A stretch of 64,000 nt of DNA from Escherichia phage vB_EcoM_phAPEC6, in the sequence record MK817115.1, one strand, 5' to 3'. The first letter of the stretch is position 1. Each line of letters opens with the position of its first letter. Made by a program: the position numbers and the translations under genes. Shown here piece by piece: positions 28,016 to 55,394 of the stretch. A model generated the notes under the pieces. It was not told the origin of the DNA and made no database searches. It worked only from the letters and a program-made list of their open reading frames with translations.

Positions 28016-28533
28016 AAATTCTTCATCACCAACCCAAGAGATTTAAGATAATTGATTTTAGCAGTGGTTAAGTACTTATCCAGTACTATCAGACACGAAG
28101 GAAATGGTGCTGAATCTGTTTTCTTATCGGGTTCTTCTGGTATACCAAATCGTAATCTTCCCTTAATAAAACAAATACAATCACATATTTTAGCAGCATA
28201 ATCCTGAAAAGCAATTGTGTCGGTTCTTGAGGGTACAAGAATAACTACAGTTGCCCCGTTATTATATGCATCTACTGCTTTAGATAACCAAGTTTTCAAG
28301 TCACTGTATGGTGGATTCAACCAAACTATATTATTTCCCCAATCCTGTGATAGTGAATCATCTTCTGGAGTGAAAAAATTATCACACAATGCAGTCTCAT
28401 CAACACAAGCAGCATCAAGTGTAAATCCCCATAACTCATCCAAATCTTCAAAGAAATCTTTGGGAGTTGTCCAGTTATCTTTTCCAGTACTGAAATGTAC
28501 TGAATGTTTTTTCGAAGCATCCTTCTTCGACAT
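28012..28533 (-). CDS. phage Dam-family DNA N6-adenine methyltransferase
   Basis: WTTP, FTLDAA, WLNPPYS, LVPSRTDT, GRLRF motifs. Confidence 0.75.
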   Translation of the reverse strand: MSKKDASKKHSVHFSTGKDNWTTPKDFFEDLDELWGFTLDAACVDETALCDNFFTPEDDSLSQDWGNNIVWLNPPYSDLKTWLSKAVDAYNNGATVVILVPSRTDTIAFQDYAAKICDCICFIKGRLRFGIPEEPDKKTDSAPFPSCLIVLDKYLTTAKINYLKSLGLVMKNL

Positions 28534-28549
28534 TATATAATTCCTTTTG

Positions 28550-29170
28550 TTAGAGACAGTTGTGTACTATCTTATCAAAAGTACTACTGTCAATGTTATA
28601 TTCATATAAAAATTTAAAATGTGAACCGTAACGCATCATCAGATTAAACTCTTCTTCAGTATTGAACTTGTAATCATGAATAGTCTCAGGGGTACATTTT
28701 AAACCCAAGAACTCTATAATTTCAGATGTTACATCATATCCTGAATTGAAGTATTTAACCCAAACACATTTTCCTTGTGGGTTGTATTTTCTATATTCTC
28801 CTTCTAGTTCTCCTTTAATAATATGAGCCTTAACACTTATTGAATTATTACTATATCTTTCTTCAAAATAATTACCATACTGGGCTTTTGATATTGTTGG
28901 TTTTTGAGTAGGAAGTAATTTAACTGAAGTCACTTCAATTCCATTTTGTAATTCCTTTATATAAGAAATGCATCCTTTTTCTTTAATAACCACATATCCA
29001 GTAAAGATATCTTCGTCTTGTGATTGATTAATGCAATCATCAAAATTCAAAGTTTTATAAGTAACAGTTTTTTCTTTTCTAATAAATGCCATCATTATTC
29101 CTATGGAAACATCAATGAATATACGTGACGTTGATTGCATCAACATCAGTAGAATTATCATGCTACGCAT
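28550..29170 (-). CDS. hypothetical protein (possible MORN-like repeats)
   Basis: ORF track; GYVVIKEKG / GEYRKYNPQGKCVWVKYFNSGY; N-terminus probably over-extended. Confidence 0.4.
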   Translation of the reverse strand: MRSMIILLMLMQSTSRIFIDVSIGIMMAFIRKEKTVTYKTLNFDDCINQSQDEDIFTGYVVIKEKGCISYIKELQNGIEVTSVKLLPTQKPTISKAQYGNYFEERYSNNSISVKAHIIKGELEGEYRKYNPQGKCVWVKYFNSGYDVTSEIIEFLGLKCTPETIHDYKFNTEEEFNLMMRYGSHFKFLYEYNIDSSTFDKIVHNCL

Positions 29171-29708
29171 GTCTAATTCTACAAGTACTATTTTCTTTTA
29201 ATTAATATTGACGGGGTTTGCTTGAGCATATTTCATCCCCCCGCAGGGGAAAGAACAAAAAAATTTGACGCTGGTGGCCTTCACATAGTTCATATCACGA
29301 ATTCTCTTACGAGACGAAAGCGGGTTGCTCTGTTTCTCTCTATCGCGGTTCTTGTAGCAACGGTCGTCGGTCTTAAACATCCCGACACATAATACAAATA
29401 CCATATGACCAGTACTTGTATTTGATTTCACAAAATTTGGACGCAACTATATTGTATAATTCCGACCGCATATTTCTTATGAAATCTCCCTTAGATAATT
29501 GGTAAGGTGCGATCCTTATATGTCTATCGAGGAACTCTCTTTATCCTATTGGAGTTCTTTATACAGCCGCATTGCCGTGAGTGGTTCAAACTATGCCATC
29601 ATCTAACGGGTTTCATCTGCTGTTCGTACTGAAAGGACTACTCATCTACCCTCTACATTTTCGAGTGGATTAGGCTTTTAATCATTTCCTTATGGGAACC
29701 TTTCAGGA
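29171..29708. other. GC-rich non-coding island; candidate structured RNA or regulatory region
   Basis: Hand-counted about 41-50% GC in an otherwise AT-rich window (roughly 35% GC on a 60-nt sample); no convincing ORF; 8-bp inverted repeat CTGAAAGG (29629-29636) / CCTTTCAG (29699-29706). Confidence 0.3.
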
Positions 29709-29745
29709 TTAAAAAAAGGTGACTAACATATTATGTTGTCACCTT
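29709..29745 (-). terminator. rho-independent terminator downstream of 29774..30628
   Basis: AAGGTGAC-(AACAT-ATT-ATGTT)-GTCACCTT hairpin followed by TTTTTTT on minus strand. Confidence 0.65.
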
Positions 29746-29773
29746 ATATTATATCATTAACTTATCATTTGTC

Positions 29774-30628
29774 TCAGTTATATTCGGTTTTTTCTGTGAA
29801 ATTTGTTAGTATATCAACACTAAAACTTCGAATAACCTCAATCCTGCTTGGCATGAAACGATGTTTATTTTTAATATACAACTCATCATCTTCAATAAAA
29901 GACGTAAAAATAAATGTCATATCTTCACGTGGAATTTGTAAAATATCACACATTTCATTTGCCGATGCTACTGGTGAATCGTTGTAGTACTGAGAGTATG
30001 CACTAGATTGGCGACCGATTATAATAGAATTTCTGATTAGAAAATTACTACAGTACTGAAAATCTTTGTAGTACTTTTCAATAATGTACGGCATAAGTGC
30101 TTCTTTCACGTCTTCATAACCATTAGTACTATCAATTGCTATACAGTAATCTTCACGTTCTTTTTTCTCATGATGGTAATCATAAACATACTCAAAGAAT
30201 GAATTTTTATTTAATGAATCATTTAAACCAACTGACCCACTATAGTATGATTTTCTATCATTCATTCGATCATCTGGGCATGATGCATACATAGAAGTGT
30301 CATGTGATGATGTACCAATATAAATTTTCTTAGTAATATGATTATACGCTATGTAATCATAATCTTGAACTCCAGTCAGCATTAACTGGAACATTAAATC
30401 ATCAGGAACATCAATTAACGGGTACTCAAACTTCGAATATCTACTGCGGCAGAAGTTCTTTTCAAATGCTCGGTATGCGATAAAATCTTTTAGATTTTTA
30501 CAAGATTCATGCTCATGAGCACTACTGCTACGTACATTGACATTAGTCGATGTGCAATATCCATCCGAATCTTCGGTGAAGTTACCAGCATAATCCTTAT
30601 TGTAGTCAACGATTAGATAAAGTTTCAT
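29774..30628 (-). CDS. hypothetical protein
   Basis: Start set at ATG 30628 (MKLYLIV); track start 30661 would run through the upstream terminator. Confidence 0.5.
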   Translation of the reverse strand: MKLYLIVDYNKDYAGNFTEDSDGYCTSTNVNVRSSSAHEHESCKNLKDFIAYRAFEKNFCRSRYSKFEYPLIDVPDDLMFQLMLTGVQDYDYIAYNHITKKIYIGTSSHDTSMYASCPDDRMNDRKSYYSGSVGLNDSLNKNSFFEYVYDYHHEKKEREDYCIAIDSTNGYEDVKEALMPYIIEKYYKDFQYCSNFLIRNSIIIGRQSSAYSQYYNDSPVASANEMCDILQIPREDMTFIFTSFIEDDELYIKNKHRFMPSRIEVIRSFSVDILTNFTEKTEYN

Positions 30629-30640
30629 ACATCTCCAGAC

Positions 30641-30673
30641 AAAAAAAGGACGAGATAACAAATCCCGTCCTTT
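30641..30673 (-). terminator. rho-independent terminator downstream of 30680..30985
   Basis: AAAGGACG-(12-nt loop)-CGTCCTTT followed by TTTTTTT on minus strand. Confidence 0.6.
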
Positions 30674-44530: not shown

Positions 44531-45115
44531 TCAAGAGTGGTTGCGAAGTTCTACCATTTCTTCCCAAACTAATTGGTAATCTTCTAAGTCCAGATAGAAG
44601 TCTTCATTCCAGTGCTCATGAAAGTACTTATACATGAATAGAACTCCTAAATCGTATGCAGGAAACAATAATGATAGTTGAAAGTAGTATTCCTGATTTA
44701 AAACTATATCAATAAACTCTAATGTACGTATGCCACCTTTCGATGAACGTATCTCAATGTGTGAGGTATCCTTCATACTGTAACACATGAAACCACCTCT
44801 AAATTCTGGATCATATTCACATTCGAACTGCTCACTGTTGTTATAGAAATCTCTCCCACTTTCTTGATCTTTCGGTCTACGTACTGATACATGAATATTT
44901 TTATCACGGTACATTGAACGATTTAGTATTTTCAAACATTTGAACTTATCTTCTTTAATGAACTTGATAATATCAATTATATCTTGTGCTGTACTGATAG
45001 CTGATTCGAATGTATCCAACTTAAGATGATTATATTGGGTTCCAGAGTTCATTTTTTTATCTAACATATAAACCTCATAATTCATACATTTTTGATTTGA
45101 ACTGCATATGACCAC
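44531..45115 (-). CDS. EE-FQ family paralogue
   Basis: QEYYFQLSLLF. Confidence 0.55.
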   Translation of the reverse strand: MVICSSNQKCMNYEVYMLDKKMNSGTQYNHLKLDTFESAISTAQDIIDIIKFIKEDKFKCLKILNRSMYRDKNIHVSVRRPKDQESGRDFYNNSEQFECEYDPEFRGGFMCYSMKDTSHIEIRSSKGGIRTLEFIDIVLNQEYYFQLSLLFPAYDLGVLFMYKYFHEHWNEDFYLDLEDYQLVWEEMVELRNHS

Positions 45116-49239: not shown

Positions 49240-49688
49240 TCTATACCTTCTGGATCTTTACGAAGTTCTTCGAAATCCAAATAAAATCGAGGACAGTTAA
49301 CACTCTTTAAATACCACATAATAACTAATGCTTCAAGTACTTCATCATCGTAAACAGTACTGTTTTGGAAGTAATACTCTTCACTATCCCACGGACCATC
49401 CAGTACTTCATAATTCAAAATTAATGGTTTTTTGCGATTAATAAAACGAATGCTACCATTTTCAACATAACTAATAAATTCTGCATCTCTATTGTATTCA
49501 GAAAACGATATAGGACTATTGGAATTCAACCCAAGAATAACCCTTACACCAACGGAGTTATTATACATTTCATCTTTGTAGTAGTTGCCGTTCTCGGCTT
49601 TGTACACTTCTTTGAACTTTCCTGCCTTTATATCGTCAAAGTATCCATGTAGTTCTTTTGCTTTTTCAAGAGCACTTTGTAATGACAT
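49236..49688 (-). CDS. EE-FQ family paralogue (recent tandem duplicate 1 of 5)
   Basis: MSLQSALEKAKELH ... EEYYFQNSTVYD ... VIMWYLKS. Confidence 0.6.
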   Translation of the reverse strand: MSLQSALEKAKELHGYFDDIKAGKFKEVYKAENGNYYKDEMYNNSVGVRVILGLNSNSPISFSEYNRDAEFISYVENGSIRFINRKKPLILNYEVLDGPWDSEEYYFQNSTVYDDEVLEALVIMWYLKSVNCPRFYLDFEELRKDPEGIE

Positions 49689-50154
49689 TACCTTCTCCTA
49701 CAGTATTCTCTACATATTCATAATCAAAATAGAAACTACTGGAGTCAATACTTTTGAAATACCACATAATCACAATAACATCCAGTTCTTCTTCATTGTA
49801 CAACGTACTATTCTGGAAGTAATACTCTTCACTATCCCACGGACCTTCTAGTACTGAATAAGGAATGATAGTGTCATCAGCATCACTATCTGTGTTGTAG
49901 ATGGTAATATCTTCATTACGGCAATAACTAATGTACTGATTGTACATATGATATTCACAGTTATCACTGTCACCAGTATCAGTGTGCAGTACTAATGTTT
50001 CTGCACATATCTCGGACTCGTCATAATCGTCACGGTCTTTTACAAAAAATTCAGTATCAGATGTTTTATATACACCTGGAACTGAACCTTCTTGTACCAT
50101 AATCATATACTCATGAATCTTCTTTGCTTCTTTCAATGCACTTTGTAACGACAT
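49666..50154 (-). CDS. EE-FQ family paralogue (recent tandem duplicate 2 of 5)
   Basis: MSLQSALKEAKKIH ... EEYYFQNSTLYN. Confidence 0.6.
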   Translation of the reverse strand: MSLQSALKEAKKIHEYMIMVQEGSVPGVYKTSDTEFFVKDRDDYDESEICAETLVLHTDTGDSDNCEYHMYNQYISYCRNEDITIYNTDSDADDTIIPYSVLEGPWDSEEYYFQNSTLYNEEELDVIVIMWYFKSIDSSSFYFDYEYVENTVGEGNVITKCS

Positions 50155-50597
50155 TACAAATCCCCTGAACTTAAATATTCACATGCTCCCCAGTCAAGAA
50201 AGAATGGTTCAAAATTCAATTCCTTAAAGTACCACAACACAACCAAGGAATCAAGCATTTCTTGGTTAAAAATGAAACTCTGTTGGAAGTAATACTCTTC
50301 AGTACCCCACGGGCCATCAAGTACCCCGAAGTCAACAGGTGCATTTGATGTGTCAAACGTAATCTTAGTACCTGGAATATATACAAAAAAACTAGTATAT
50401 TGACTACATGAAGAGTACTGTATAGTATTGTCTTTATCCTGTCCCATAAGTAAAATATCATCAGAGTATGTCTTTATACCTGATAGATAATACTCATCAC
50501 CAAATGCACTTACTTTATCACCATAGAACCCACTTTTTATGTTATCGTGGAAGTGATGTATTCTGTGTGCTAGTTCAAGTGCACTTGCTAAACTCAT
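50154..50597 (-). CDS. EE-FQ family paralogue (recent tandem duplicate 3 of 5)
   Basis: MSLASALELAHRIH ... EEYYFQQSFIFN. Confidence 0.6.
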   Translation of the reverse strand: MSLASALELAHRIHHFHDNIKSGFYGDKVSAFGDEYYLSGIKTYSDDILLMGQDKDNTIQYSSCSQYTSFFVYIPGTKITFDTSNAPVDFGVLDGPWGTEEYYFQQSFIFNQEMLDSLVVLWYFKELNFEPFFLDWGACEYLSSGDL

Positions 50598-51064
50598 ATA
50601 TCCTCTTTAATAACTCGTAGTAGATCCAAGTCCAAATAGAAGCTAGGACAATCTGTATTATTAAAGTACCACAGAATGACAAGCTTGTCAAGTACATCTT
50701 CCTCGTAGATAGTATTCTGCTGGAAGTAGTACTCTTCACTTCCCCAGTCATTATCCAGTACTGAATACGGAAGATGTTTCTCTGCTGCACCAGATATAAT
50801 GTCAGAATCTTGTATTAAAATATCAGCATCACGACAGAAGTACATGTAATTATCTTCCAAATTAACATCACACCCATTGAGTGTTGTTTCAGAAGAATCT
50901 AAGTTTTCTTCATACATGTGAATGTACTCACTACTGTCATCGTATCTCATTCGACAATAAGATTTACCTTCCTTGAATAGATATCCATTGAGACAATTTG
51001 CTACAATTTCTTTGCTGCATAAATCAATTAACTTCGCAATCTCTAATGCTCTTTCTAAACTCAT
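50594..51064 (-). CDS. EE-FQ family paralogue (recent tandem duplicate 4 of 5)
   Basis: MSLERALEIAKLID ... EEYYFQQNTIYE. Confidence 0.6.
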   Translation of the reverse strand: MSLERALEIAKLIDLCSKEIVANCLNGYLFKEGKSYCRMRYDDSSEYIHMYEENLDSSETTLNGCDVNLEDNYMYFCRDADILIQDSDIISGAAEKHLPYSVLDNDWGSEEYYFQQNTIYEEDVLDKLVILWYFNNTDCPSFYLDLDLLRVIKEDI

Positions 51065-51065
51065 T

Positions 51066-51557
51066 TTAACCCCTGTTAATACCGTTATCTACAGTTTTCT
51101 TTACGTATTTGTAATCGAAATAGAAGTTCCCAGAACCAATACTTTTAAAGTACCACATAATTATAATAACATCAAGTACTTCATTATCGTATACAGTACT
51201 TTGTTGGAAGTAATACTCTTCACTATCCCACGGACCTTCCAGTACTTCACTCGGAATTATAATGTCATCGGAATCGCTATCAGTACTGTAGATGGTATCT
51301 GTATCATTAATATAGACCATGTACTCATTATGCATATTAATGAAGCATTCATAATCATTAGGGTCGGTATCCAGTACACACGTTTCTGTATCCAGTACGC
51401 ACGTTTCTGTATCTGAGCAGTCATTATAAAGGAGGTTATCCGGTACATAATATTGAGTACTTGTGTCTTTGAAAACACCGTAAACTGAACCTTCTTTTGC
51501 CATATTCATGTACTCATGAATCTTCTTTGCTTTTTCCAATGAACTCTGTAATGTCAT
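51066..51557 (-). CDS. EE-FQ family paralogue (recent tandem duplicate 5 of 5)
   Basis: MTLQSSLEKAKKIH ... EEYYFQQSTVYD; carries internal 7-aa duplication DTETCVL. Confidence 0.6.
   Translation of the reverse strand: MTLQSSLEKAKKIHEYMNMAKEGSVYGVFKDTSTQYYVPDNLLYNDCSDTETCVLDTETCVLDTDPNDYECFINMHNEYMVYINDTDTIYSTDSDSDDIIIPSEVLEGPWDSEEYYFQQSTVYDNEVLDVIIIMWYFKSIGSGNFYFDYKYVKKTVDNGINRG
51370..51411. repeat. 21-bp tandem direct repeat (2 units, 1 mismatch), in-frame within 51066..51557
   Basis: tccagtacacacgtttctgta / tccagtacgcacgtttctgta. Confidence 0.8.
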
Positions 51558-51566
51558 TTTATAATC

Positions 51567-51926
51567 TCATATATTGAAATAATAATTATTCGTTCTTGAT
51601 GGGGATGGATTAAATACGTTTTCTTTTTCAAATCTCTTCATTTCATTTTGCAAAGAAACCATTTCTTCAAATGTACAGGAGTACTTATTCTTATCAAACA
51701 CTAATGCAGCCTGAAATAGTTCACCATCGTCCAGTACTGTATAATCTATAAGACTCTCAGATTCATAGTCATAGTCGTCATGTGATACATGAATAAATTT
51801 AAAACAAGAATCTTTGTAATGCATATATAAACTCAACTCATGTTCCGAGTCGCCCTTAATAAGATTACAGCACAAGTCCCATCCTTTAGGTAACTTATAA
51901 TAGTACATAGAATAATCATATGTCAT
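51567..51926 (-). CDS. EE-FQ family paralogue (short subfamily)
   Basis: DDGELFQAALVFDKNKYSCTFEEM. Confidence 0.55.
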   Translation of the reverse strand: MTYDYSMYYYKLPKGWDLCCNLIKGDSEHELSLYMHYKDSCFKFIHVSHDDYDYESESLIDYTVLDDGELFQAALVFDKNKYSCTFEEMVSLQNEMKRFEKENVFNPSPSRTNNYYFNI

Positions 51927-52279
51927 TCTTGAATTCCTAAATTGAATTTGTATTCTTGATTAATACTTGCATTGGGTTTATGCAAAGCAGCATACTCTTT
52001 CATTTCATTTTGTATTGCAATAACTTCTTCAAATGTACACAAGTACTTCTTATCAAATACTAATGATTCTTGGAATAGTTCTGCGGTATCCATTAATGTA
52101 TAGTCCGGCATATCTTGGTGTGGATACTGTAATGAACTGTAATCAATGAATGTAAATTTACCCTGAGTGTAATGAATATACTCATTTGCACTGTGCATTA
52201 AATCACCTTTGTTTAAATTACAAAAGTACTGATAACTGTGCTTGAAAGTATGTACTGATATTAAAAAATCAAATTCCAT
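51923..52279 (-). CDS. EE-FQ family paralogue (short subfamily)
   Basis: DTAELFQESLVFDKKYLCTFEEV. Confidence 0.55.
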   Translation of the reverse strand: MEFDFLISVHTFKHSYQYFCNLNKGDLMHSANEYIHYTQGKFTFIDYSSLQYPHQDMPDYTLMDTAELFQESLVFDKKYLCTFEEVIAIQNEMKEYAALHKPNASINQEYKFNLGIQE

Positions 52280-52291
52280 CAGTACTCAACC
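52210..52291. repeat. 82-bp direct repeat, copy A (5' end of gene 51923..52279)
   Basis: Near-identical to 52729..52810 (2 mismatches by eye). Confidence 0.75.
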
Positions 52292-52650
52292 TCTACATAA
52301 ATAGATTCAGGAAACTTAGTCATATAATCTTCTGGATAGTTCTGCATTACTTTGATCATTTCTGCCTGTGTAGCACGGACGTATTCAATTGGTGCTCCTG
52401 GTAAATTCCAGACAGTACTTTCCTGAAAGAATTCCTCTTCTGACAGTACTGTCAGATTTACAAAATCATTACGGTAATTTTTTGAATCATCATATGTGAA
52501 GATTTTAAAAGACCCATTTTCATATAGTACAAGAACAAAATGGGAGAATTTTTGTAATGCACCACCAAGGCTTTCCACGACCGCATGATTCAGTGTACAG
52601 ATGACCTCTTTTTTCCTCATACCGAATTGAATTCTAATTTCTTTTTTCAT
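52279..52650 (-). CDS. EE-FQ family paralogue (short subfamily)
   Basis: SEEEFFQESTVWN. Confidence 0.55.
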   Translation of the reverse strand: MKKEIRIQFGMRKKEVICTLNHAVVESLGGALQKFSHFVLVLYENGSFKIFTYDDSKNYRNDFVNLTVLSEEEFFQESTVWNLPGAPIEYVRATQAEMIKVMQNYPEDYMTKFPESIYVEVEY

Positions 52651-52651
52651 A

Positions 52652-52808
52652 AAATCTCCTTCAGATTAGTACTGAATTTGTACAGAATATTAGAACTGTA
52701 TACAGCCTCTGTATCTGTATCCATAATCAAATCACCTTTGTTTAAATTACAAAAGTACTGATAACTGTGCTTAAAAGAATGTACTGATATTAAAAAATCA
52801 AATTCCAT
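52652..52808 (-). pseudogene. remnant ORF (52 aa): duplicated N-terminus of an EE-FQ short-subfamily gene
   Basis: Own translation MEFDFLISVHSFKHSYQYFCNLNKGDLIMDTDTEAVYSSNILYKFSTNLKEIL; first 27 aa almost identical to N-terminus of 51923..52279; overlaps neighbours at both ends. Confidence 0.5.
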
Positions 52809-52810
52809 CA
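52729..52810. repeat. 82-bp direct repeat, copy B
   Basis: aaatcacctttgtttaaattacaaaagtactgataactgtgctt...tcaaattccatca. Confidence 0.75.
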
Positions 52811-53185
52811 CTCTTCCCCTAGATTGAAATGATTACAAAAATCATCTTCACCAGTACTGCACCAGATATCTATACATTCCCTGTGAATACATTTAATTCT
52901 ACGCTGTAATTCAATCATCTCTTCTAATGTACAGATGTACTTCTTATCAAATACTAATGCCGCCTGAAACAGTGCAGCATCATCAAGTACTGTATAGTCC
53001 AACATCTCGGTTGCTTTACCCCTAAACCCAGTACTAAAATCCATCAAATAAAAGTCAGCATTCCAGTACTTTAAAATCTTGTCCCTAGCGTAGTTTAAAT
53101 CACCCTTGTATAAGTTAGAGTGCGTAACTAACTCACCAGTGTACATCCATGTCCTTGCACAAAATTCATTATATTTTATTTCCAT
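52808..53185 (-). CDS. EE-FQ family paralogue (short subfamily)
   Basis: DDAALFQAALVFDKKYICTLEEM; start set at MEIKYNEF (track start 53293 over-extended). Confidence 0.5.
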   Translation of the reverse strand: MEIKYNEFCARTWMYTGELVTHSNLYKGDLNYARDKILKYWNADFYLMDFSTGFRGKATEMLDYTVLDDAALFQAALVFDKKYICTLEEMIELQRRIKCIHRECIDIWCSTGEDDFCNHFNLGEE

Positions 53186-53381
53186 CTTAATCTCTACTAT
53201 AATTAATAAGGTAAACTCCAATATAAGGAGCACGTTGCGGGGGCGGGGTATTTTTTGTTTCAGGAAACATGAACTGTACTCTGAAAAACACAATATAAAA
53301 CTTTATATTAAACATATACCTTAGCATGTTTTTCAGCGGAAATTTTTTTGACCCCCTGCGGCCTGTCAAAACGAAACGTCT

Positions 53382-53606
53382 CTATTTATTCAGCCTAGAA
53401 ACCTTGATTTCTTCAATCCTTTTCATTGCACAAAGCCTTCGACTCGTCCTCTCGTATATATTCAATACTCGCTGTAATGCATTATCTGTATTATCTGCAA
53501 CTGCAATCTGAACCAAATATGTATCCTTCAAAATAGAATCCATCATGAATTCAAAACCTTTCACACTAAAGCAATATGCCACTTCCGGCTCTTCAAACGT
53601 AATCAT
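53382..53606 (-). CDS. hypothetical protein
   Basis: ORF track. Confidence 0.4.
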   Translation of the reverse strand: MITFEEPEVAYCFSVKGFEFMMDSILKDTYLVQIAVADNTDNALQRVLNIYERTSRRLCAMKRIEEIKVSRLNK

Positions 53607-53796
53607 AATTCCAATCCCCTATTCCCTCTAACCTTCTAAGATATCTTGCGTAAATTATTTCGAAATATCTGTGCAACGAAATTACGGATTGCTCATAATC
53701 ATCATTCCTGTACATTGTGCATGTCAGAAAATCATTTAACCCAAAATCTAAACTGCACTTGAACTTCTCCTTAGCAACATCTCTAAAATTATTCAT
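53593..53796 (-). CDS. hypothetical protein
   Basis: ORF track. Confidence 0.4.
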   Translation of the reverse strand: MNNFRDVAKEKFKCSLDFGLNDFLTCTMYRNDDYEQSVISLHRYFEIIYARYLRRLEGIGDWNYDYV

Positions 53797-53978
53797 AATA
53801 TGTCCTCTGTACAGCGTAGGTGTACTGTGAACTCAGCACCACTAATAGGTAATCTATATTGTAAGCACGATTTCCTCGTTGACTAGCACGGCTGGAATAA
53901 AGAATATTATCCACATATGTATTGAACTGATCTTCAAATAACTCTTTCATCAGCATTATACCATCACATAATCATACA

Positions 53979-54531
53979 TCATACATTAACAACTTTATCG
54001 ATGTAATCTTCTAACATATCAATATATCTGGTATTGGTTCTAACTAAAAGGTATGCAAATCCAGAGAACTCCTGTGTATAATGCTTTACAGCGTACATAC
54101 AACGAAGCTTATCATTGTCATACATTGTACTGTACTGAAACAAACTCTCGTCTGATAGCTCTAATAACGCTTGGGCTTCACTTCTCGTGAACTTCATAGG
54201 GTCATGTACTGCATCACAAAAACAAACCTGTGTCTCGCTATTGAAACCCTGTGATAGATATATACCTTCACACTCTGAACGCACCGATACTGCATTATAA
54301 CTATGTGTTGCCCCCATCATATCTGAACTCAAAACTAAAATCAACCCATTTTTATTTTTAATCAACAAATCTGACTTAAGGGATTTGATCTCCGTATGGG
54401 AAATATCACCAAATCTTCCTGGGACTTCAAACTTATCAACGTTGTATACAATCTTTTGTACTTGCTCTTTTAAACGCTTAATTGCACTTCTGTCTTTTTC
54501 TAATGTATCTAATAAACTCATTGAACTCATT
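53979..54531 (-). CDS. EE-FQ family paralogue
   Basis: DESLFQYSTMYD; start set at MSSMSLLDTLEK, matching the family N-terminus. Confidence 0.5.
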
Positions 54532-54540
54532 GTACTTTCC

Positions 54541-54882
54541 TTACATATTTGTACCGAACAAAACGGAACTGCGAACGTCATTGATCGACAATTCATGTAC
54601 ATATATATTTTGTCTGAACAAAGGAACTAATTGAACTAAACTTTGTTGCATAACAATATGCATATGTAAATTGTCATATGCCGTTTCGTATTGGAAACGT
54701 GCTGCTTCATCTTCTATGAAATTAGGAACTTGGACTGGATTTTCAAAATTTGTTCTTGAACTGAACTGCACATCATTATCCTGTACTTTAATACCATATG
54801 CATTATCATCATCATATACATCTAATTCAATTAAACTACCATCACTTTTTATGTTTACCACACAAACCGAAAATCGACTCAT
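54541..54882 (-). CDS. EE-FQ family paralogue
   Basis: EAARFQYETAYD. Confidence 0.5.
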   Translation of the reverse strand: MSRFSVCVVNIKSDGSLIELDVYDDDNAYGIKVQDNDVQFSSRTNFENPVQVPNFIEDEAARFQYETAYDNLHMHIVMQQSLVQLVPLFRQNIYVHELSINDVRSSVLFGTNM

Positions 54883-55394
54883 AAACCTATTTCCTCTAAA
54901 TCTTTGACAAATGTATCATAATCCGATAATGACAAAAATATGTCTGTACTGATGTTTTGACGTAATGTATTAAACAAATTATGTACCTGTAATAAATCAG
55001 GTGCATAAATCAGGGATTGCTGGAAATACGATTCTTCTGTATCTAATATATCCCTGCACTCAATTTCACGAACTCGTTGGTATATTGAATTTAATAATAC
55101 ATTTTCATCTTTGAGCATTGGAAGGTATCTGATGTACATGTGCTCCATCAACTCATCCTGGATTGAACCCCTGAACTGCAACACGTATTCAAAACACATC
55201 ACTACATCTTGTAGGTAATTGGCACTGTAATTATTGCTGTAAACAATCTTATGACTTCTGAACTCATCATCATTTCTGAACCAATCGTCACCCACTTTGG
55301 TGTACTTATGACTAAGCTTCCCATCCTCCAACGCTCGAATGAACTTCATAATGTTAATTGCAAAATCATATGAATGATGCTTGTGTTGATGCAT
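54879..55394 (-). CDS. EE-FQ family paralogue
   Basis: EESYFQQSLIYA. Confidence 0.55.
   Translation of the reverse strand: MHQHKHHSYDFAINIMKFIRALEDGKLSHKYTKVGDDWFRNDDEFRSHKIVYSNNYSANYLQDVVMCFEYVLQFRGSIQDELMEHMYIRYLPMLKDENVLLNSIYQRVREIECRDILDTEESYFQQSLIYAPDLLQVHNLFNTLRQNISTDIFLSLSDYDTFVKDLEEIGL

What the first reader, a model, noticed from the sequence alone, without database searches (positions are those of the whole stretch)
53186..53381. Second GC-rich intergenic patch shares a short element with the 29 kb island
The intergenic region upstream of 52808..53185 contains GCGGGGGCGGGG followed by a T-run (53237..53257) and AAATTTTTTTGACCCCCTGCGGCC (53340..53363). The reverse complement of the 29 kb island contains AAATTTTTTTG-ttctttc-CCCCTGCGGGGGG (29237..29267). 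The shared 'AAATTTTTTTG ... CCCCTGCGG' arrangement in an AT-rich genome suggests a repeated regulatory or RNA element, present in opposite orientations.
Basis: seen in the sequence. Interest (0 to 1): 0.45.

Follow-up and report, generated by a model that had tools for sequence, protein, structure and literature searches.

The report
Orphan fragment of phage RNA gene
The short GC-rich motif really does occur twice, but the 29 kb copy is the tail of a previously undescribed, highly structured non-coding RNA gene of jumbo phages, while the flagged 53 kb copy is only a degenerate, inverted fragment of that tail in an untranslated spacer between two small genes.

Summary
The window is an Asteriusvirus (121Q/G17-like E. 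coli jumbo phage) with genes on the minus strand. AAATTTTTTTG-N-CCCCTGCGG occurs exactly twice, in opposite orientation, and each half occurs nowhere else in 64 kb.

The 29 kb copy is not a free-standing element. It lies in the 3' region of a ~540-nt non-coding RNA gene on the minus strand that has its own conserved promoter. This RNA belongs to a multi-copy family (3-4 copies per genome) found across Rak2/CBB-like jumbo phage genera. It has no Rfam match and no match in bacterial genomes. Covariation is strong: 41 pairs in 7 helices, two of them pseudoknotted, 30 pairs compensated, 0 of 500 shuffles as good.

The 53 kb copy matches only the lineage-specific U-tract/half-hairpin of that one paralogue. 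It lacks the family-invariant bases, has no fold signal and no consensus promoter or terminator. Its poly-G length is variable, it is absent from phage ph0011, and it coincides with rearrangement breakpoints.

Best reading: an inverted partial duplicate, a recombination scar, in an intergenic spacer. Because both loci are on the minus strand, the spacer mRNA is complementary to the RNA's 3' end (-36 to -42 kcal/mol). Antisense regulation is therefore possible but unsupported by compensatory change.

The parts
53334..53363 (+). Copy A of the shared element (GC patch 1): CAGCGG-AAATTTTTTTG-A-CCCCCTGCGG-CC. On the minus (mRNA) strand it reads GGCCGCAGGGGG-TC-AAAAAAATTT-CCGCTG.
   Evidence: The poly-G/C run varies from 4 to 10 nt among 13 genomes, and GCA becomes GCT in three of them. 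The A4 rearrangement breakpoint lies exactly at the G-run.
53237..53257 (+). GC patch 2: GCGGGGGCGGGG followed by TATTTTTTG. It is a hypervariable, low-complexity GC tract.
   Evidence: Variants include CGGCGGCGGGG, CGGTGGCGGGG and GGGGCGGGG; ph0011 has ACAATCA in its place. It shares TGCGGGGG with the 29 kb hairpin, but only in a subset of genomes. It pairs with patch 1 in the MFE folds, without significance or covariation.
53258..53333 (-). Conserved AT-rich core of the spacer. It contains a weak promoter-like AAAACA (53332-53327) -16 nt- TAATAT (53310-53305) and the inverted repeat CTGAAAAAC/GTTTTTCAG.
   Evidence: Nearly invariant in 13 genomes. ph0011 keeps AAAACA-16-TATAAT inside an otherwise replaced segment. 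The site scores poorly against the phage's own strong-promoter matrix and was not listed by the consensus scan.
53186..53236 (-). Invariant leader just upstream of the ATG at 53185: AACGTGCTCCTTATATTGGAGTTTACCTTATTAATTATAGTAGAGATTAAG. It contains the small hairpin CTCC..GGAG.
   Evidence: Identical or nearly identical in all 15 aligned genomes, including those in which the upstream part is replaced.
53346..53371 (.). Inverted repeat TTTTGAC-N12-GTCAAAA around patch 1. On the minus strand this reads TTGACA -16 nt- AAAAAT, a sigma-70-like match.
   Evidence: TTGACA is TTCACA in half of the genomes with no compensating change, and the spacer length follows the poly-G length.
29241..29273 (-). Copy B of the shared element, inside the ncRNA gene: CAGCGUC-AAAUUUUUUUG-UUCUUU-CCCCUGCGG.
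   Evidence: It lies within the R1 3'-module hit at 29281-29203 (72 bits, E 1.7e-13).
29203..29745 (-). A ~540-nt structured non-coding RNA gene, the window's only member of a multi-copy jumbo-phage RNA family. The 3' module spans 29281-29203: box CAGCGUCA, U-tract 29266-29256, GC hairpin ~29255-29232 (CCCC-UGCG-GGGG core at 29249-29238), box CCCCGUCAAUA.
   Evidence: 66-76% nucleotide identity across genera with nothing annotated. nhmmer E 1.6e-151. Covariation. Fold z -2.53 on the minus strand versus -1.40 on the plus strand. No Rfam hit.
29748..29775 (-). Promoter of the ncRNA gene: GAGACA (29775-29770) -16 nt- TGATATAAT (29756-29748). The stop codon of the upstream gene overlaps the -35 element.
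   Evidence: rank 4 of ~64,000 positions. The same architecture, TGAAAC(G)/TGAGACA-16/17-TGnTATAAT, precedes all 21 family copies examined. It matches the 'divergent RpoD-like' promoter class described for CBB and GAP32 (PMC5259590).
29709..29745 (-). Hairpin AAGGUGACAAC..GUUAGUCACCUU plus U7. It is the intrinsic terminator of the upstream gene 29774..30661, and it begins 3 nt after the ncRNA -10 box, so it is also the 5' end of the ncRNA.
   Evidence: Annotated as a terminator in G17 and Munch. Fold. The idea that promoter-initiated transcripts lack part of the 5' arm and so read through is inference.

Best explanation
The shared motif is real because the two loci share ancestry, not because they are two working copies of one element.

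At 29 kb the motif is the junction between a U-tract and the 5' arm and loop of a conserved GC hairpin. This junction lies in the 3' region of a ~540-nt, pseudoknotted non-coding RNA transcribed from the minus strand by its own conserved promoter.

At 53 kb there is only a ~30-35-nt inverted, degenerate duplicate of that junction, taken from this particular paralogue. It is embedded in a 196-nt untranslated spacer of the minus-strand early-gene array.

I read it as a recombination or template-switch scar in a hyperplastic region. GC-rich hairpin and homopolymer sequences mark the boundaries at which modules have been exchanged. The spacer's conserved parts (the AT-rich core and the 50-nt leader) carry whatever regulatory function the spacer has. 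The GC patches are accessory and unstable. The fragment is not itself a folded RNA, a canonical promoter or a terminator.

Shown: the duplication, the inverted orientation, the degeneracy, the variability, and the nature of the 29 kb RNA gene. Inferred: the direction of copying (29 kb to 53 kb) and the lack of autonomous function.
For: Identity of the window: Asteriusvirus.

The motif:
- It is unique to the two loci.

The 29 kb locus is a structured RNA gene:
- It is conserved and unannotated across genera, with 3-4 copies per genome.
- It is absent from 185k bacterial genomes and present in 21 metagenome contigs.
- A promoter precedes every copy examined.
- 41 pairs in 7 helices, 95.8% paired, 30 pairs compensated, 0 of 500 shuffles as good, slid controls ~40% paired; two helices are pseudoknotted.
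- The hp1 hairpin has 5 of 6 pairs compensated.
- G.U to G-C/A-U alternations and segment energies fix the minus strand.

The 53 kb copy is degenerate:
- There is no hit with the family HMM or the 3'-module CM.
- The hairpin 3' arm is GCC instead of the invariant GGGGGGAUGAAA.
- Fold z-scores are -0.35 and -0.79.
- No terminator was found and no strong promoter.

Instability and dispensability:
- The poly-G run is 4-10 nt long.
- ph0011 lacks both patches.
- The A4 and SD-1_S14 breakpoints fall at the patches.

Direction of copying:
- The T-rich linker after CGUCA is ancestral in the syntenic RNA copies (Munch, L112).
- In the 'type T' paralogues the same position holds a covarying hairpin plus U6-7.
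- The 53 kb cassette is confined to part of the genus: 32 records against 61 for the RNA.
Against: - The flanking A7T3-CGCTG part of the fragment is invariant in 13 genomes, and the spacer is as conserved as the neighbouring genes. Some constraint is therefore possible.
- In phage A4 the G-run-to-leader cassette is retained between two different flanking genes. That looks like a functional module.
- The inverted orientation makes the spacer mRNA complementary to the ncRNA 3' end. It is the best non-self predicted target on the minus strand in the window.
- No mechanism for a 35-nt inverted duplication over 24 kb has been demonstrated.
- There are no transcript data.
Confidence: 0.5

Rival explanations
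1. Antisense target site. The ncRNA (or its 3' domain) made at 29 kb base-pairs in trans with the spacer of the early polycistronic mRNA at 53 kb. The pairing would be 5 + 11 + 9 bp, with U-tract against A-tract and the C-rich arm against the G-run. It would control processing, stability or translation of the downstream gene 52808..53185.
For: Both loci are read from the minus strand, so the inverted copy is complementary. Duplexfold gives -35.8 kcal/mol for the window, -42.5 for G17, -38.9 for 121Q and -32 to -40 for Ecwhy_1, Turkey3 and TH47 (CMSTMSU, whose ncRNA hairpin is corrupted in an unverified record, gives only -19.7). It is the top non-self site among 4,263 minus-strand windows: -39.8 against a background of -17.0 +/- 4.6. 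Longer G-runs extend pairing with the pyrimidine-rich arm.
Against: There is no compensatory change. GCA to GCT in the mRNA site of Ecwhy_1, Turkey3 and CMSTMSU, and the TH47 changes, are not matched in the ncRNA. The next-best sites score close behind (-36.4, -35.4). The ncRNA segment is partly sequestered in its own hairpin. ph0011 keeps the ncRNA but lacks the site. The 3' module is conserved in genera in which no such site was seen by blastn (the 53 kb query matched only Escherichia/Salmonella Asteriusvirus records); it therefore has another primary role.
Confidence: 0.15
2. Promoter module. Patch 1 and the A7T3 tract form the upstream part (a terminator remnant plus an UP-like A/T tract) of a weak host-RNAP promoter that drives 52808..53185. 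The promoter would be either AAAACA-16-TAATAT or TTGACA-16-AAAAAT, the latter with the GC hairpin in its spacer.
For: TTGACA-16-AAAAAT scores 10 of 12. AAAACA-16-TAATAT is invariant, and ph0011 keeps AAAACA-16-TATAAT in a replaced segment. The A7T3 tract sits about -43 to -52 from that -35 box, which is the UP-element position. UP-like elements are reported for this phage group (PMC5259590). The cassette is retained between different genes in A4. Other family copies have TTGACT-[GC hairpin]-TATAGT promoters downstream of the RNA.
Against: Promoter-like matches in the region are not enriched (9 found against 6.9 +/- 2.3). The candidate scores -9.9 on the phage's own promoter matrix (20th percentile), while true promoters score 19-24. 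The TTGACA spacer changes from about 15 to 21 nt with poly-G length, and the -35 box is TTCACA in half of the genomes. The 29 kb copy has no promoter in the equivalent position.
Confidence: 0.15
3. Chance or convergence. Two unrelated GC-rich stem-forming patches next to A/T runs, as expected near operon ends in an AT-rich phage, happen to share words.
For: The generic alignment score is within the AT-rich background. Patch 2's TGCGGGGG match is clearly lineage-specific and probably coincidental. A/T homopolymer runs are common.
Against: Three ordered blocks (CAGCG, AAATTTTTTTG, CCCCTGCGG) occur in the same order. Both longer blocks are unique to the two loci in 64 kb and in the 348-kb 121Q genome. 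A rough composition-based estimate of the expectation for a second copy is about 5e-7. No shuffle of 100 gave a match.
Confidence: 0.1
4. Autonomous RNA or DNA structure. The two GC patches of the 53 kb spacer pair with each other as a GC clamp closing a ~95-nt AT-rich loop, forming a functional leader structure or a DNA element.
For: The patches pair in the MFE and centroid folds of both strands. Both are absent together in ph0011.
Against: z-scores are -0.35 and -0.79. The patches vary independently with no compensation, for example GCA to GCT. SD-1_S14 keeps patch 2 without patch 1. Any G-run and C-run pair trivially in an AT-rich context.
Confidence: 0.05
5. Recombination sites. The inverted copies are crossover sites for a site-specific invertase flipping the 24-kb segment between them.
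For: The orientation is inverted and the core is short.
Against: Every listed record matched by both queries has the two loci on the same relative strand; where checked (G17, 121Q, PBECO4, Ecwhy_1, TH47) they lie ~23-24 kb apart. No inverted isomer is seen. The similarity is gapped and imperfect. One copy is constrained as RNA.
Confidence: 0.03

Closest known systems
PeSL (promoter-early stem-loop) cassettes of T4-type phages (Arbiol et al. 2010, Genome Biol Evol; recalled from memory, not read here)
   Same: Short intergenic stem-loop or regulatory sequences in hyperplastic early-gene regions that recur in a genome and mark the junctions at which modules are exchanged. Here the breakpoints in A4, SD-1_S14 and ph0011 fall at the GC patches.
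   Different: PeSLs are many direct copies, each a strong sigma-70 promoter plus an efficient terminator. Here there are only two copies, inverted, with no strong promoter or terminator at 53 kb. One copy is part of an RNA gene.
Rho-independent (intrinsic) terminators
   Same: A GC-rich stem next to a run of U/T. In the 'type T' paralogues of the RNA family a covarying hairpin plus U6-7 occupies exactly the position of the window's A3T7.
   Different: At both window loci the T-run precedes the hairpin on the strand where it is a T-run and follows it as an A-run on the other. No terminator was called. The 53 kb hairpin is broken.
Trans-encoded antisense sRNA-target pairs (enterobacterial Hfq-type sRNAs)
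   Same: Imperfect 25-bp complementarity between an ncRNA segment next to a U-tract and an untranslated mRNA segment with an A-tract.
   Different: The RNA is ~540 nt and highly structured. There is no conservation of pairing by compensatory change. No expression or Hfq data exist.
Large structured phage-associated ncRNAs (GOLLD, ROOL in Rfam) and the RNA-seq-defined lncRNAs of jumbo phage PA5oct (PMC7318152)
   Same: For the 29 kb gene: several hundred nucleotides, intricate conserved structure, phage-borne, function unknown. PA5oct, a related jumbo phage, transcribes 236-619-nt ncRNAs from ORF-free gaps.
   Different: No Rfam model matches this family. The PA5oct ncRNA regions tested (ncRNA001, 002 and 004; ncRNA003 was not fetched) give no nhmmer hit. 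This family has 3-4 diverged paralogues per genome, each with its own promoter.
ColE1 RNA II and T4 oriF/oriG origin transcripts (recalled from memory; a lead only)
   Same: A promoter-driven, structured RNA of ~550 nt with a G-run/C-run and an A/T-rich tract near its 3' end. Several copies are dispersed around a large genome that encodes RNase H.
   Different: Nothing here tests priming or R-loop formation. There is no sequence similarity. This is pure analogy.

Membership tests
Rho-independent terminator | GC-rich stem-loop immediately followed by a U-tract on the transcribed strand | tested here: not met
   No terminator-like site in 52500-54000 or 28500-30000. At 53 kb the stem is broken (CCCCC-UGCG-GCC). 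The T-run is 5' of the hairpin.
Sigma-70-type promoter (phage early class, TG(A/G)(A/G)ACA-16-TGnTATAAT) | -35 and extended -10 boxes at 16-17 nt, conserved among relatives | tested here: not met
   For the 53 kb spacer the best matrix score is 4.0, and that site lies in the leader/ORF. The AAAACA-16-TAATAT candidate scores -9.9, against 19-24 for the 11 strong sites. The TTGACA-16-AAAAAT spacer varies with poly-G length. The feature is met for the 29 kb RNA gene promoter (rank 4).
PeSL-like mobile regulatory cassette | Many dispersed direct copies | tested here: not met
   Two copies per genome, inverted.
PeSL-like mobile regulatory cassette | Strong promoter plus terminator in each copy | tested here: not met
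   Neither was found at the 53 kb locus.
PeSL-like mobile regulatory cassette | Rearrangement breakpoints coincide with the cassettes | tested here: met
   The A4 breakpoint lies at the G-run. The SD-1_S14 breakpoint lies at the A-run before patch 2. ph0011 has the segment between the patches replaced.
Structured non-coding RNA (applied to the 53 kb spacer) | Thermodynamic signal and compensatory covariation | tested here: not met
   z -0.35 and -0.79. Changes in candidate stems are uncompensated.
Structured non-coding RNA (applied to the 29 kb gene) | Compensatory covariation in several helices across diverged homologues | tested here: met
   41 pairs, 30 with double changes, 95.8% paired, 0 of 500 shuffles as good, slid controls 38-47% paired. 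hp1. Independent helix search.
Structured non-coding RNA (applied to the 29 kb gene) | Own transcription signals and no conserved ORF | tested here: met
   A conserved promoter precedes all 21 copies examined. The region is left unannotated in most records examined, or carries only short, non-conserved ORF calls (e.g. Kaldavass). Conservation is in blocks separated by variable stems. Transcription itself is not testable here.
Any Rfam 15 family (including GOLLD, ROOL, group I/II introns, RNase P, tmRNA, 6S) | Covariance-model match at or near the gathering score | tested here: not met
   No gathering-level hit in the window. Only noise at E<=10 over 28900-30000 and at E<=1 over six other family members. 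ARAGORN found no tRNA or tmRNA.
The jumbo-phage RNA family itself (applied to the 53 kb fragment) | Match to the family profile or CM, including the invariant GGGGGGAUGAAA and CGUCA boxes | tested here: not met
   nhmmer --max at E<=10 and CM R1 at E<=10 give no hit at 53 kb in the window or in 14 orthologous loci.
Trans-acting antisense RNA / target pair | Extended complementarity between two co-expressed RNAs | tested here: met
   -32 to -42.5 kcal/mol in six of seven genomes (CMSTMSU -19.7). Best non-self minus-strand site in the window. Co-expression is not testable here.
Trans-acting antisense RNA / target pair | Pairing maintained by compensatory substitutions between loci | tested here: not met
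   GCA to GCT and the TH47 changes in the target are not mirrored in the ncRNA. The T-to-C (ncRNA) and C-to-T (mRNA) changes are not clearly compensatory.
Invertible-segment crossover sites | Both orientations of the intervening segment among isolates | tested here: not met
   The relative strand is the same in every listed record matched by both queries, and spacing is ~23-24 kb in the five genomes checked.

The most novel reading that the evidence does not exclude
The 29 kb 'island' and its paralogues are a new class of large, pseudoknotted jumbo-phage RNA. The evidence for a genuine structured RNA family is strong, about 0.85. The flagged 53 kb fragment would then be its trans-acting antisense target. 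The RNA's U-tract and C-rich 3' segment would pair with the A-tract and G-run of an early-operon spacer to time expression of the downstream early genes, with poly-G length tuning the strength of pairing.

An even more speculative alternative is that the dispersed, promoter-driven ~540-nt RNAs are ColE1-RNA-II-like origin primers, and that the G-run plus A/T-tract fragment at 53 kb is a pseudo-origin.
Probability: 0.15. Interest if true: 0.8.

Novelty: new variant of a known kind. Interest (0 to 1): 0.6.

Why it matters
The 53 kb patch by itself matters little. It illustrates how GC-rich hairpin and homopolymer sequences become scars and breakpoints of module shuffling in the hyperplastic early regions of giant phages.

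What it led to matters more. Rak2/CBB/121Q-like jumbo phages carry 3-4 diverged copies of a ~540-nt RNA gene with its own conserved promoter, pseudoknots and invariant sequence blocks. The gene is unannotated in the records examined, absent from Rfam and absent from bacterial genomes.

Large, intricately folded RNAs of this size are rare. They have usually turned out to be ribozymes or RNP scaffolds. This is therefore a concrete, testable candidate for a new RNA function in phage infection. The complementary site at 53 kb offers a first hypothesis to test.

Tried and rejected
- tRNA or tmRNA: none found.
- Rfam: nothing at gathering level or at permissive thresholds.
- Terminator at either locus: none found.
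- Strong promoter at 53 kb: none found.
- Coding potential of the spacer: only spurious ORFs. A 30-36-aa CDS is annotated in just two genomes. The homopolymer length differences would break the frame (inference).
- The 53 kb spacer as a decayed full-length copy of the RNA gene: no HMM or CM similarity beyond the ~33 nt.
- Hairpin TTTTGAC/GTCAAAA and the CTGAAAAAC/GTTTTTCAG stem: changes are uncompensated.
- Long-range pairing of the two GC patches: not significant.
- Patch 2 as the other half of the hairpin (shared TGCGGGGG, suggesting an att-like permuted arrangement): the match is not conserved in other Asteriusviruses.
- Invertible segment: no inverted isomers seen.
- Plus strand as the RNA strand at 29 kb: whole-molecule MFE is uninformative and some short stems favour the plus strand. 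The promoter, the G.U alternations and the number of covarying helices favour the minus strand.
- Resemblance of box 1 to the tmRNA 5' region (GACGGGAUUUG): it lies on the wrong strand and ARAGORN is negative.
- Homology to the PA5oct lncRNAs (ncRNA001, 002 and 004 regions tested): none.
- Literature: no description of this RNA was found.
- mafft-qinsi structural alignment: not installed.
- MAFFT+RNAalifold on the variable three-hairpin segment: only partly recovered the structure.
Full report
**Identity and layout.** The window is an Asteriusvirus, an E. coli jumbo myovirus of the 121Q/PBECO4/G17 group. The segment 52000-55000 is 97.8% identical to vB_EcoM_G17 and matches 35 phage records. 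GC content is 32.5% and almost all genes lie on the minus strand. The flagged region 53186-53381 is a 196-nt gap between the minus-strand ORFs 53382..53606 and 52808..53185, in an array of otherwise abutting small genes.

**Check of the observation.**
- The pattern AAATTTTTTTG-N(0-8)-CCCCTGCGG matches twice, at 53340-53361 (+) and 29241-29266 (-). None of 100 shuffles gave a match.
- AAATTTTTTTG, CCCCTGCGG and CCCCTGC occur nowhere else on either strand.
- In IMG/VR the exact pattern is found only in phage 121Q, again at just these two loci of its 348-kb genome.
- A local alignment extends the match to CAGCG-(G/TC)-AAATTTTTTTG-(AC/TTCTTT)-CCCCTGCGG.
- Caveat: a generic alignment score (27) is not above what shuffled AT-rich sequence reaches (30.3 +/- 2.8). 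The significance lies in the rare GC-rich words and their order.
- The spacer as a whole is only 36% GC. Just two 12-14-nt patches are GC-rich.

**What the 29 kb copy really is.** The '29 kb island' is a ~680-nt gap with no credible ORF.
- It is 100% identical to 121Q. It is conserved at 66-76% nucleotide identity in Salmonella (Munch, 7t3), Klebsiella, Erwinia, Xanthomonas, Serratia, Yersinia, Cronobacter and Pectobacterium jumbo phages, in most of which nothing is annotated at the site (contexts).
- Alignments show invariant blocks separated by variable stems with compensatory changes.
- Two pattern scans of IMG/VR show 3-4 diverged paralogues per genome:
  - 121Q: ~90.5, ~193 and ~327 kb.
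  - Yersinia phage fHe-Yen9-04: ~25, ~174, ~261 and ~335 kb.
  - CBB and GAP32: three each.
- In 121Q the other two copies fill 720- and 835-nt unannotated gaps, one after the sigma-factor gene and one next to endonuclease VII.
- A 27-base two-block pattern found no bacterial or archaeal genome among 185,579 species. It found 21 metagenome contigs, several of them 350-370-kb phage contigs.
- No Rfam 15 family matches, at gathering level or permissive thresholds, in the window or in six other members. ARAGORN finds nothing.
- Literature searches found no description. The nearest precedent is RNA-seq-defined lncRNAs of 236-619 nt in the related jumbo phage PA5oct. Those tested are not detectably homologous.

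**The 29 kb locus is a structured RNA on the minus strand.**
- All 21 copies examined carry, in the window-minus orientation, TGAAAC(G)/TGAGACA-16/17 nt-TGnTATAAT. In the window this is GAGACA 29775-29770 and TGATATAAT 29756-29748, which ranks 4th of ~64,000 positions on a matrix built from the window's own promoters. This is the 'divergent RpoD-like' promoter class reported for CBB and GAP32 (PMC5259590).
- One hairpin has 5 of 6 pairs with double compensatory changes. No shuffle of 500 reached its covariation score.
- On a 17-sequence alignment of the region corresponding to window ~29420-29275, a hand-drawn structure of 7 helices (41 pairs) is 95.8% paired. Thirty pairs have changes on both sides. 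No shuffle of 500 was as good, and slid controls give 38-47% paired.
- Two of these helices cross the others. One pairs the loop of a hairpin with a distal strand (7 bp, 5 covarying). The other is GUUGC:GCAAC. The RNA is therefore pseudoknotted.
- G.U to G-C or A-U alternations at several pairs would be A.C mismatches on the other strand.
- Segment energies point the same way in two segments: -27.5 versus -18.5 kcal/mol in 22 of 22 sequences for the three-hairpin segment, and -15.8 versus -11.7 in 21 of 22 for the 3' hairpin; two short segments (hp1 and AGCCGC..TAACGGG) favoured the plus strand.
- More covarying helices appear in the minus orientation, 13 versus 8.
- The window copy folds with z = -2.53 on the minus strand and -1.40 on the plus strand.

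**Where the motif sits in that RNA.** In RNA orientation the 3' module (29281-29203) runs as follows:
1. Box A(C/U)CA(G/U)CGUCA.
2. A linker.
3. A GC hairpin whose 3' arm GGGGGGAUGAAA is invariant, while the 5' arm varies with C-to-U changes.
4. A second box CAAA(U/C)C(U/C)CGUCA.

In the window copy the linker is AAAUUUUUUUG. In one paralogue type (121Q ~327 kb and its orthologues) exactly this position holds a covarying hairpin followed by U6-7, which is an intrinsic-terminator-like element. The U-tract is therefore probably a termination or 3'-end-related feature of the RNA. This is inference.

**What the 53 kb copy is.** It matches only the lineage-specific part of the window's own 29 kb paralogue.
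- The invariant family nucleotides are missing: CAGCG-G instead of CAGCGUCA, and GCC instead of GGGGGGAUGAAA. The hairpin therefore cannot form.
- Neither the family HMM (nhmmer --max, E<=10) nor a covariance model of the 3' module detects it in the window or in 14 orthologous loci.
- The spacer has no thermodynamic signal (z -0.35 and -0.79), no terminator, and no enrichment of promoter-like sites.
- Across 13-15 Asteriusvirus genomes, the AT-rich core and the 50 nt before the ATG are nearly invariant. The two GC patches are the most variable parts: poly-G of 4-10 nt, GCA/GCT, and CGGCGG-type variants.
- ph0011 lacks both patches. In A4, homology starts exactly at the G-run and ends just before the start codon, between different flanking genes. 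In SD-1_S14, homology starts at the A-run before patch 2.
- The 53 kb cassette is found in 32 records, against 61 for the RNA gene.
- I therefore read the fragment as an inverted partial duplicate of the RNA gene's U-tract/hairpin junction. It is a recombination or template-switch scar in a hyperplastic early region, comparable in role to the junction sequences (PeSLs) of T4-type phages. It is not a member of that class.

**Rivals.**
1. *Antisense target.* Because both loci are read from the minus strand, the spacer mRNA is complementary to the ncRNA 3' end (5 + 11 + 9 bp). Duplex energies are -35.8 (window), -42.5 (G17) and -38.9 (121Q), and -32 to -40 in three further genomes; CMSTMSU, whose ncRNA hairpin is corrupted in an unverified record, gives -19.7. 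It is the best non-self minus-strand site in the window, at -39.8 against a background of -17.0 +/- 4.6, although the next sites reach -36.4. Substitutions in the site are not compensated in the ncRNA, and ph0011 does without it. I give this 0.15.
2. *Weak promoter.* A weak promoter (AAAACA-16-TAATAT, retained as AAAACA-16-TATAAT in ph0011; or TTGACA-16-AAAAAT) with the A7T3 tract in UP-element position is possible. It scores poorly on the phage's own promoter matrix, and the TTGACA version is disrupted by poly-G length variation. I give this 0.15.
3. *Other rivals.* Chance, a GC-clamp structure and inversion sites are disfavoured.

**Limits.**
- There are no transcript data. TSS, 3' ends and function are inferred.
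- The full-length structure of the RNA was not modelled. The tool is limited to short models, and only parts were tested.
- Copy counts come from exact-pattern scans and are lower bounds. One search reports 4-5 matching places per record.
- The direction of copying is inferred from the distribution among relatives.
- The function of the RNA family is unknown. The antisense and origin-primer ideas are hypotheses.

**Verdict.** The flagged patch itself is an ordinary, probably non-functional fragment. It points to a well-supported, apparently undescribed family of large structured RNAs in jumbo phages, which is the result worth following up.

Noticed in passing
window 29203-29775 (minus strand); also L140:1622-2416, L141:2574-3280 and more than 50 loci: A ~540-nt promoter-driven, pseudoknotted non-coding RNA gene. 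It belongs to a multi-copy family (3-4 paralogues per genome) conserved across Rak2/CBB/121Q-like jumbo phage genera. It is unannotated in most records examined (a few carry short hypothetical ORF calls), absent from Rfam 15 and absent from bacterial genomes.
   Followed up: yes
window 29709-29775: Terminator and promoter overlap. The stop codon of gene 29774..30661 lies in the -35 box of the ncRNA promoter. The gene's terminator hairpin plus U7 starts 3 nt after the -10 box, so ncRNA transcripts would begin inside or at the foot of that hairpin.
   Followed up: partly
window 29270-29277 (+); also 12990 and 20630 (minus-strand sense): A perfect E. coli Chi site (GCTGGTGG) lies inside the conserved box 2 of the ncRNA gene. 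Other paralogues and genera have GCTGATGG or GATGATAG, so it may be coincidental. About 0.25 sites are expected by composition in the window, and three are seen.
   Followed up: partly
window ~36000-62000 (e.g. 49261-51251, 51567-53185, 54541-55394): A large array of small paralogous minus-strand genes sharing a motif such as EE.FQ(Q/E)S(T/L)V(Y/F)D, including five ~450-nt tandem units. This is a hyperplastic early region of unknown function.
   Followed up: no
window 52197-52281 versus 52726-52810: A 529-bp tandem duplication with 96% identical junction repeats. Many relatives cover only 85% of 52000-55000 in two pieces, probably because they lack this duplication.
   Followed up: no
window minus strand, -35 first bases at 44534, 33239, 31481, 29775, 25840, 23690, 19804, 16193, 13956, 8501 (and 1521): A set of about 11 strong, near-identical promoters, (T/G)G(G/A)ACA-16 nt-TGATATAAT, all facing the direction of the genes. 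None lies in the 53 kb spacer.
   Followed up: partly
window 53352-53356 and 53237-53248, and orthologous loci L001, L004-L016: Homopolymer and low-complexity GC tracts whose length differs in almost every sequenced isolate (G4 to G10; CGGCGG variants). This is either real slippage or sequencing error. It also shifts any short ORF annotated there.
   Followed up: partly
window 29100-29800 versus 52000-55000: Mosaicism. The 29 kb region is 100% identical to 121Q, but the 53 kb region is only 94-97% identical to 121Q and closest to G17 and ECO103 4-12-1. The window's phage is therefore a recombinant relative of these isolates.
   Followed up: no
L078, L113, L034, L068, L064, L171 (downstream of the RNA gene, RNA orientation): In one paralogue type the RNA is followed by a sigma-70-like promoter whose 17-nt spacer is a GC hairpin (TTGACT-CGCAAGAGCGAGGCGAG-TATAGT). 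In another type it is followed by GGAACATC..GATGTTCC-TTGTATAAT. Hairpin-in-promoter designs may be common in these phages.
   Followed up: no
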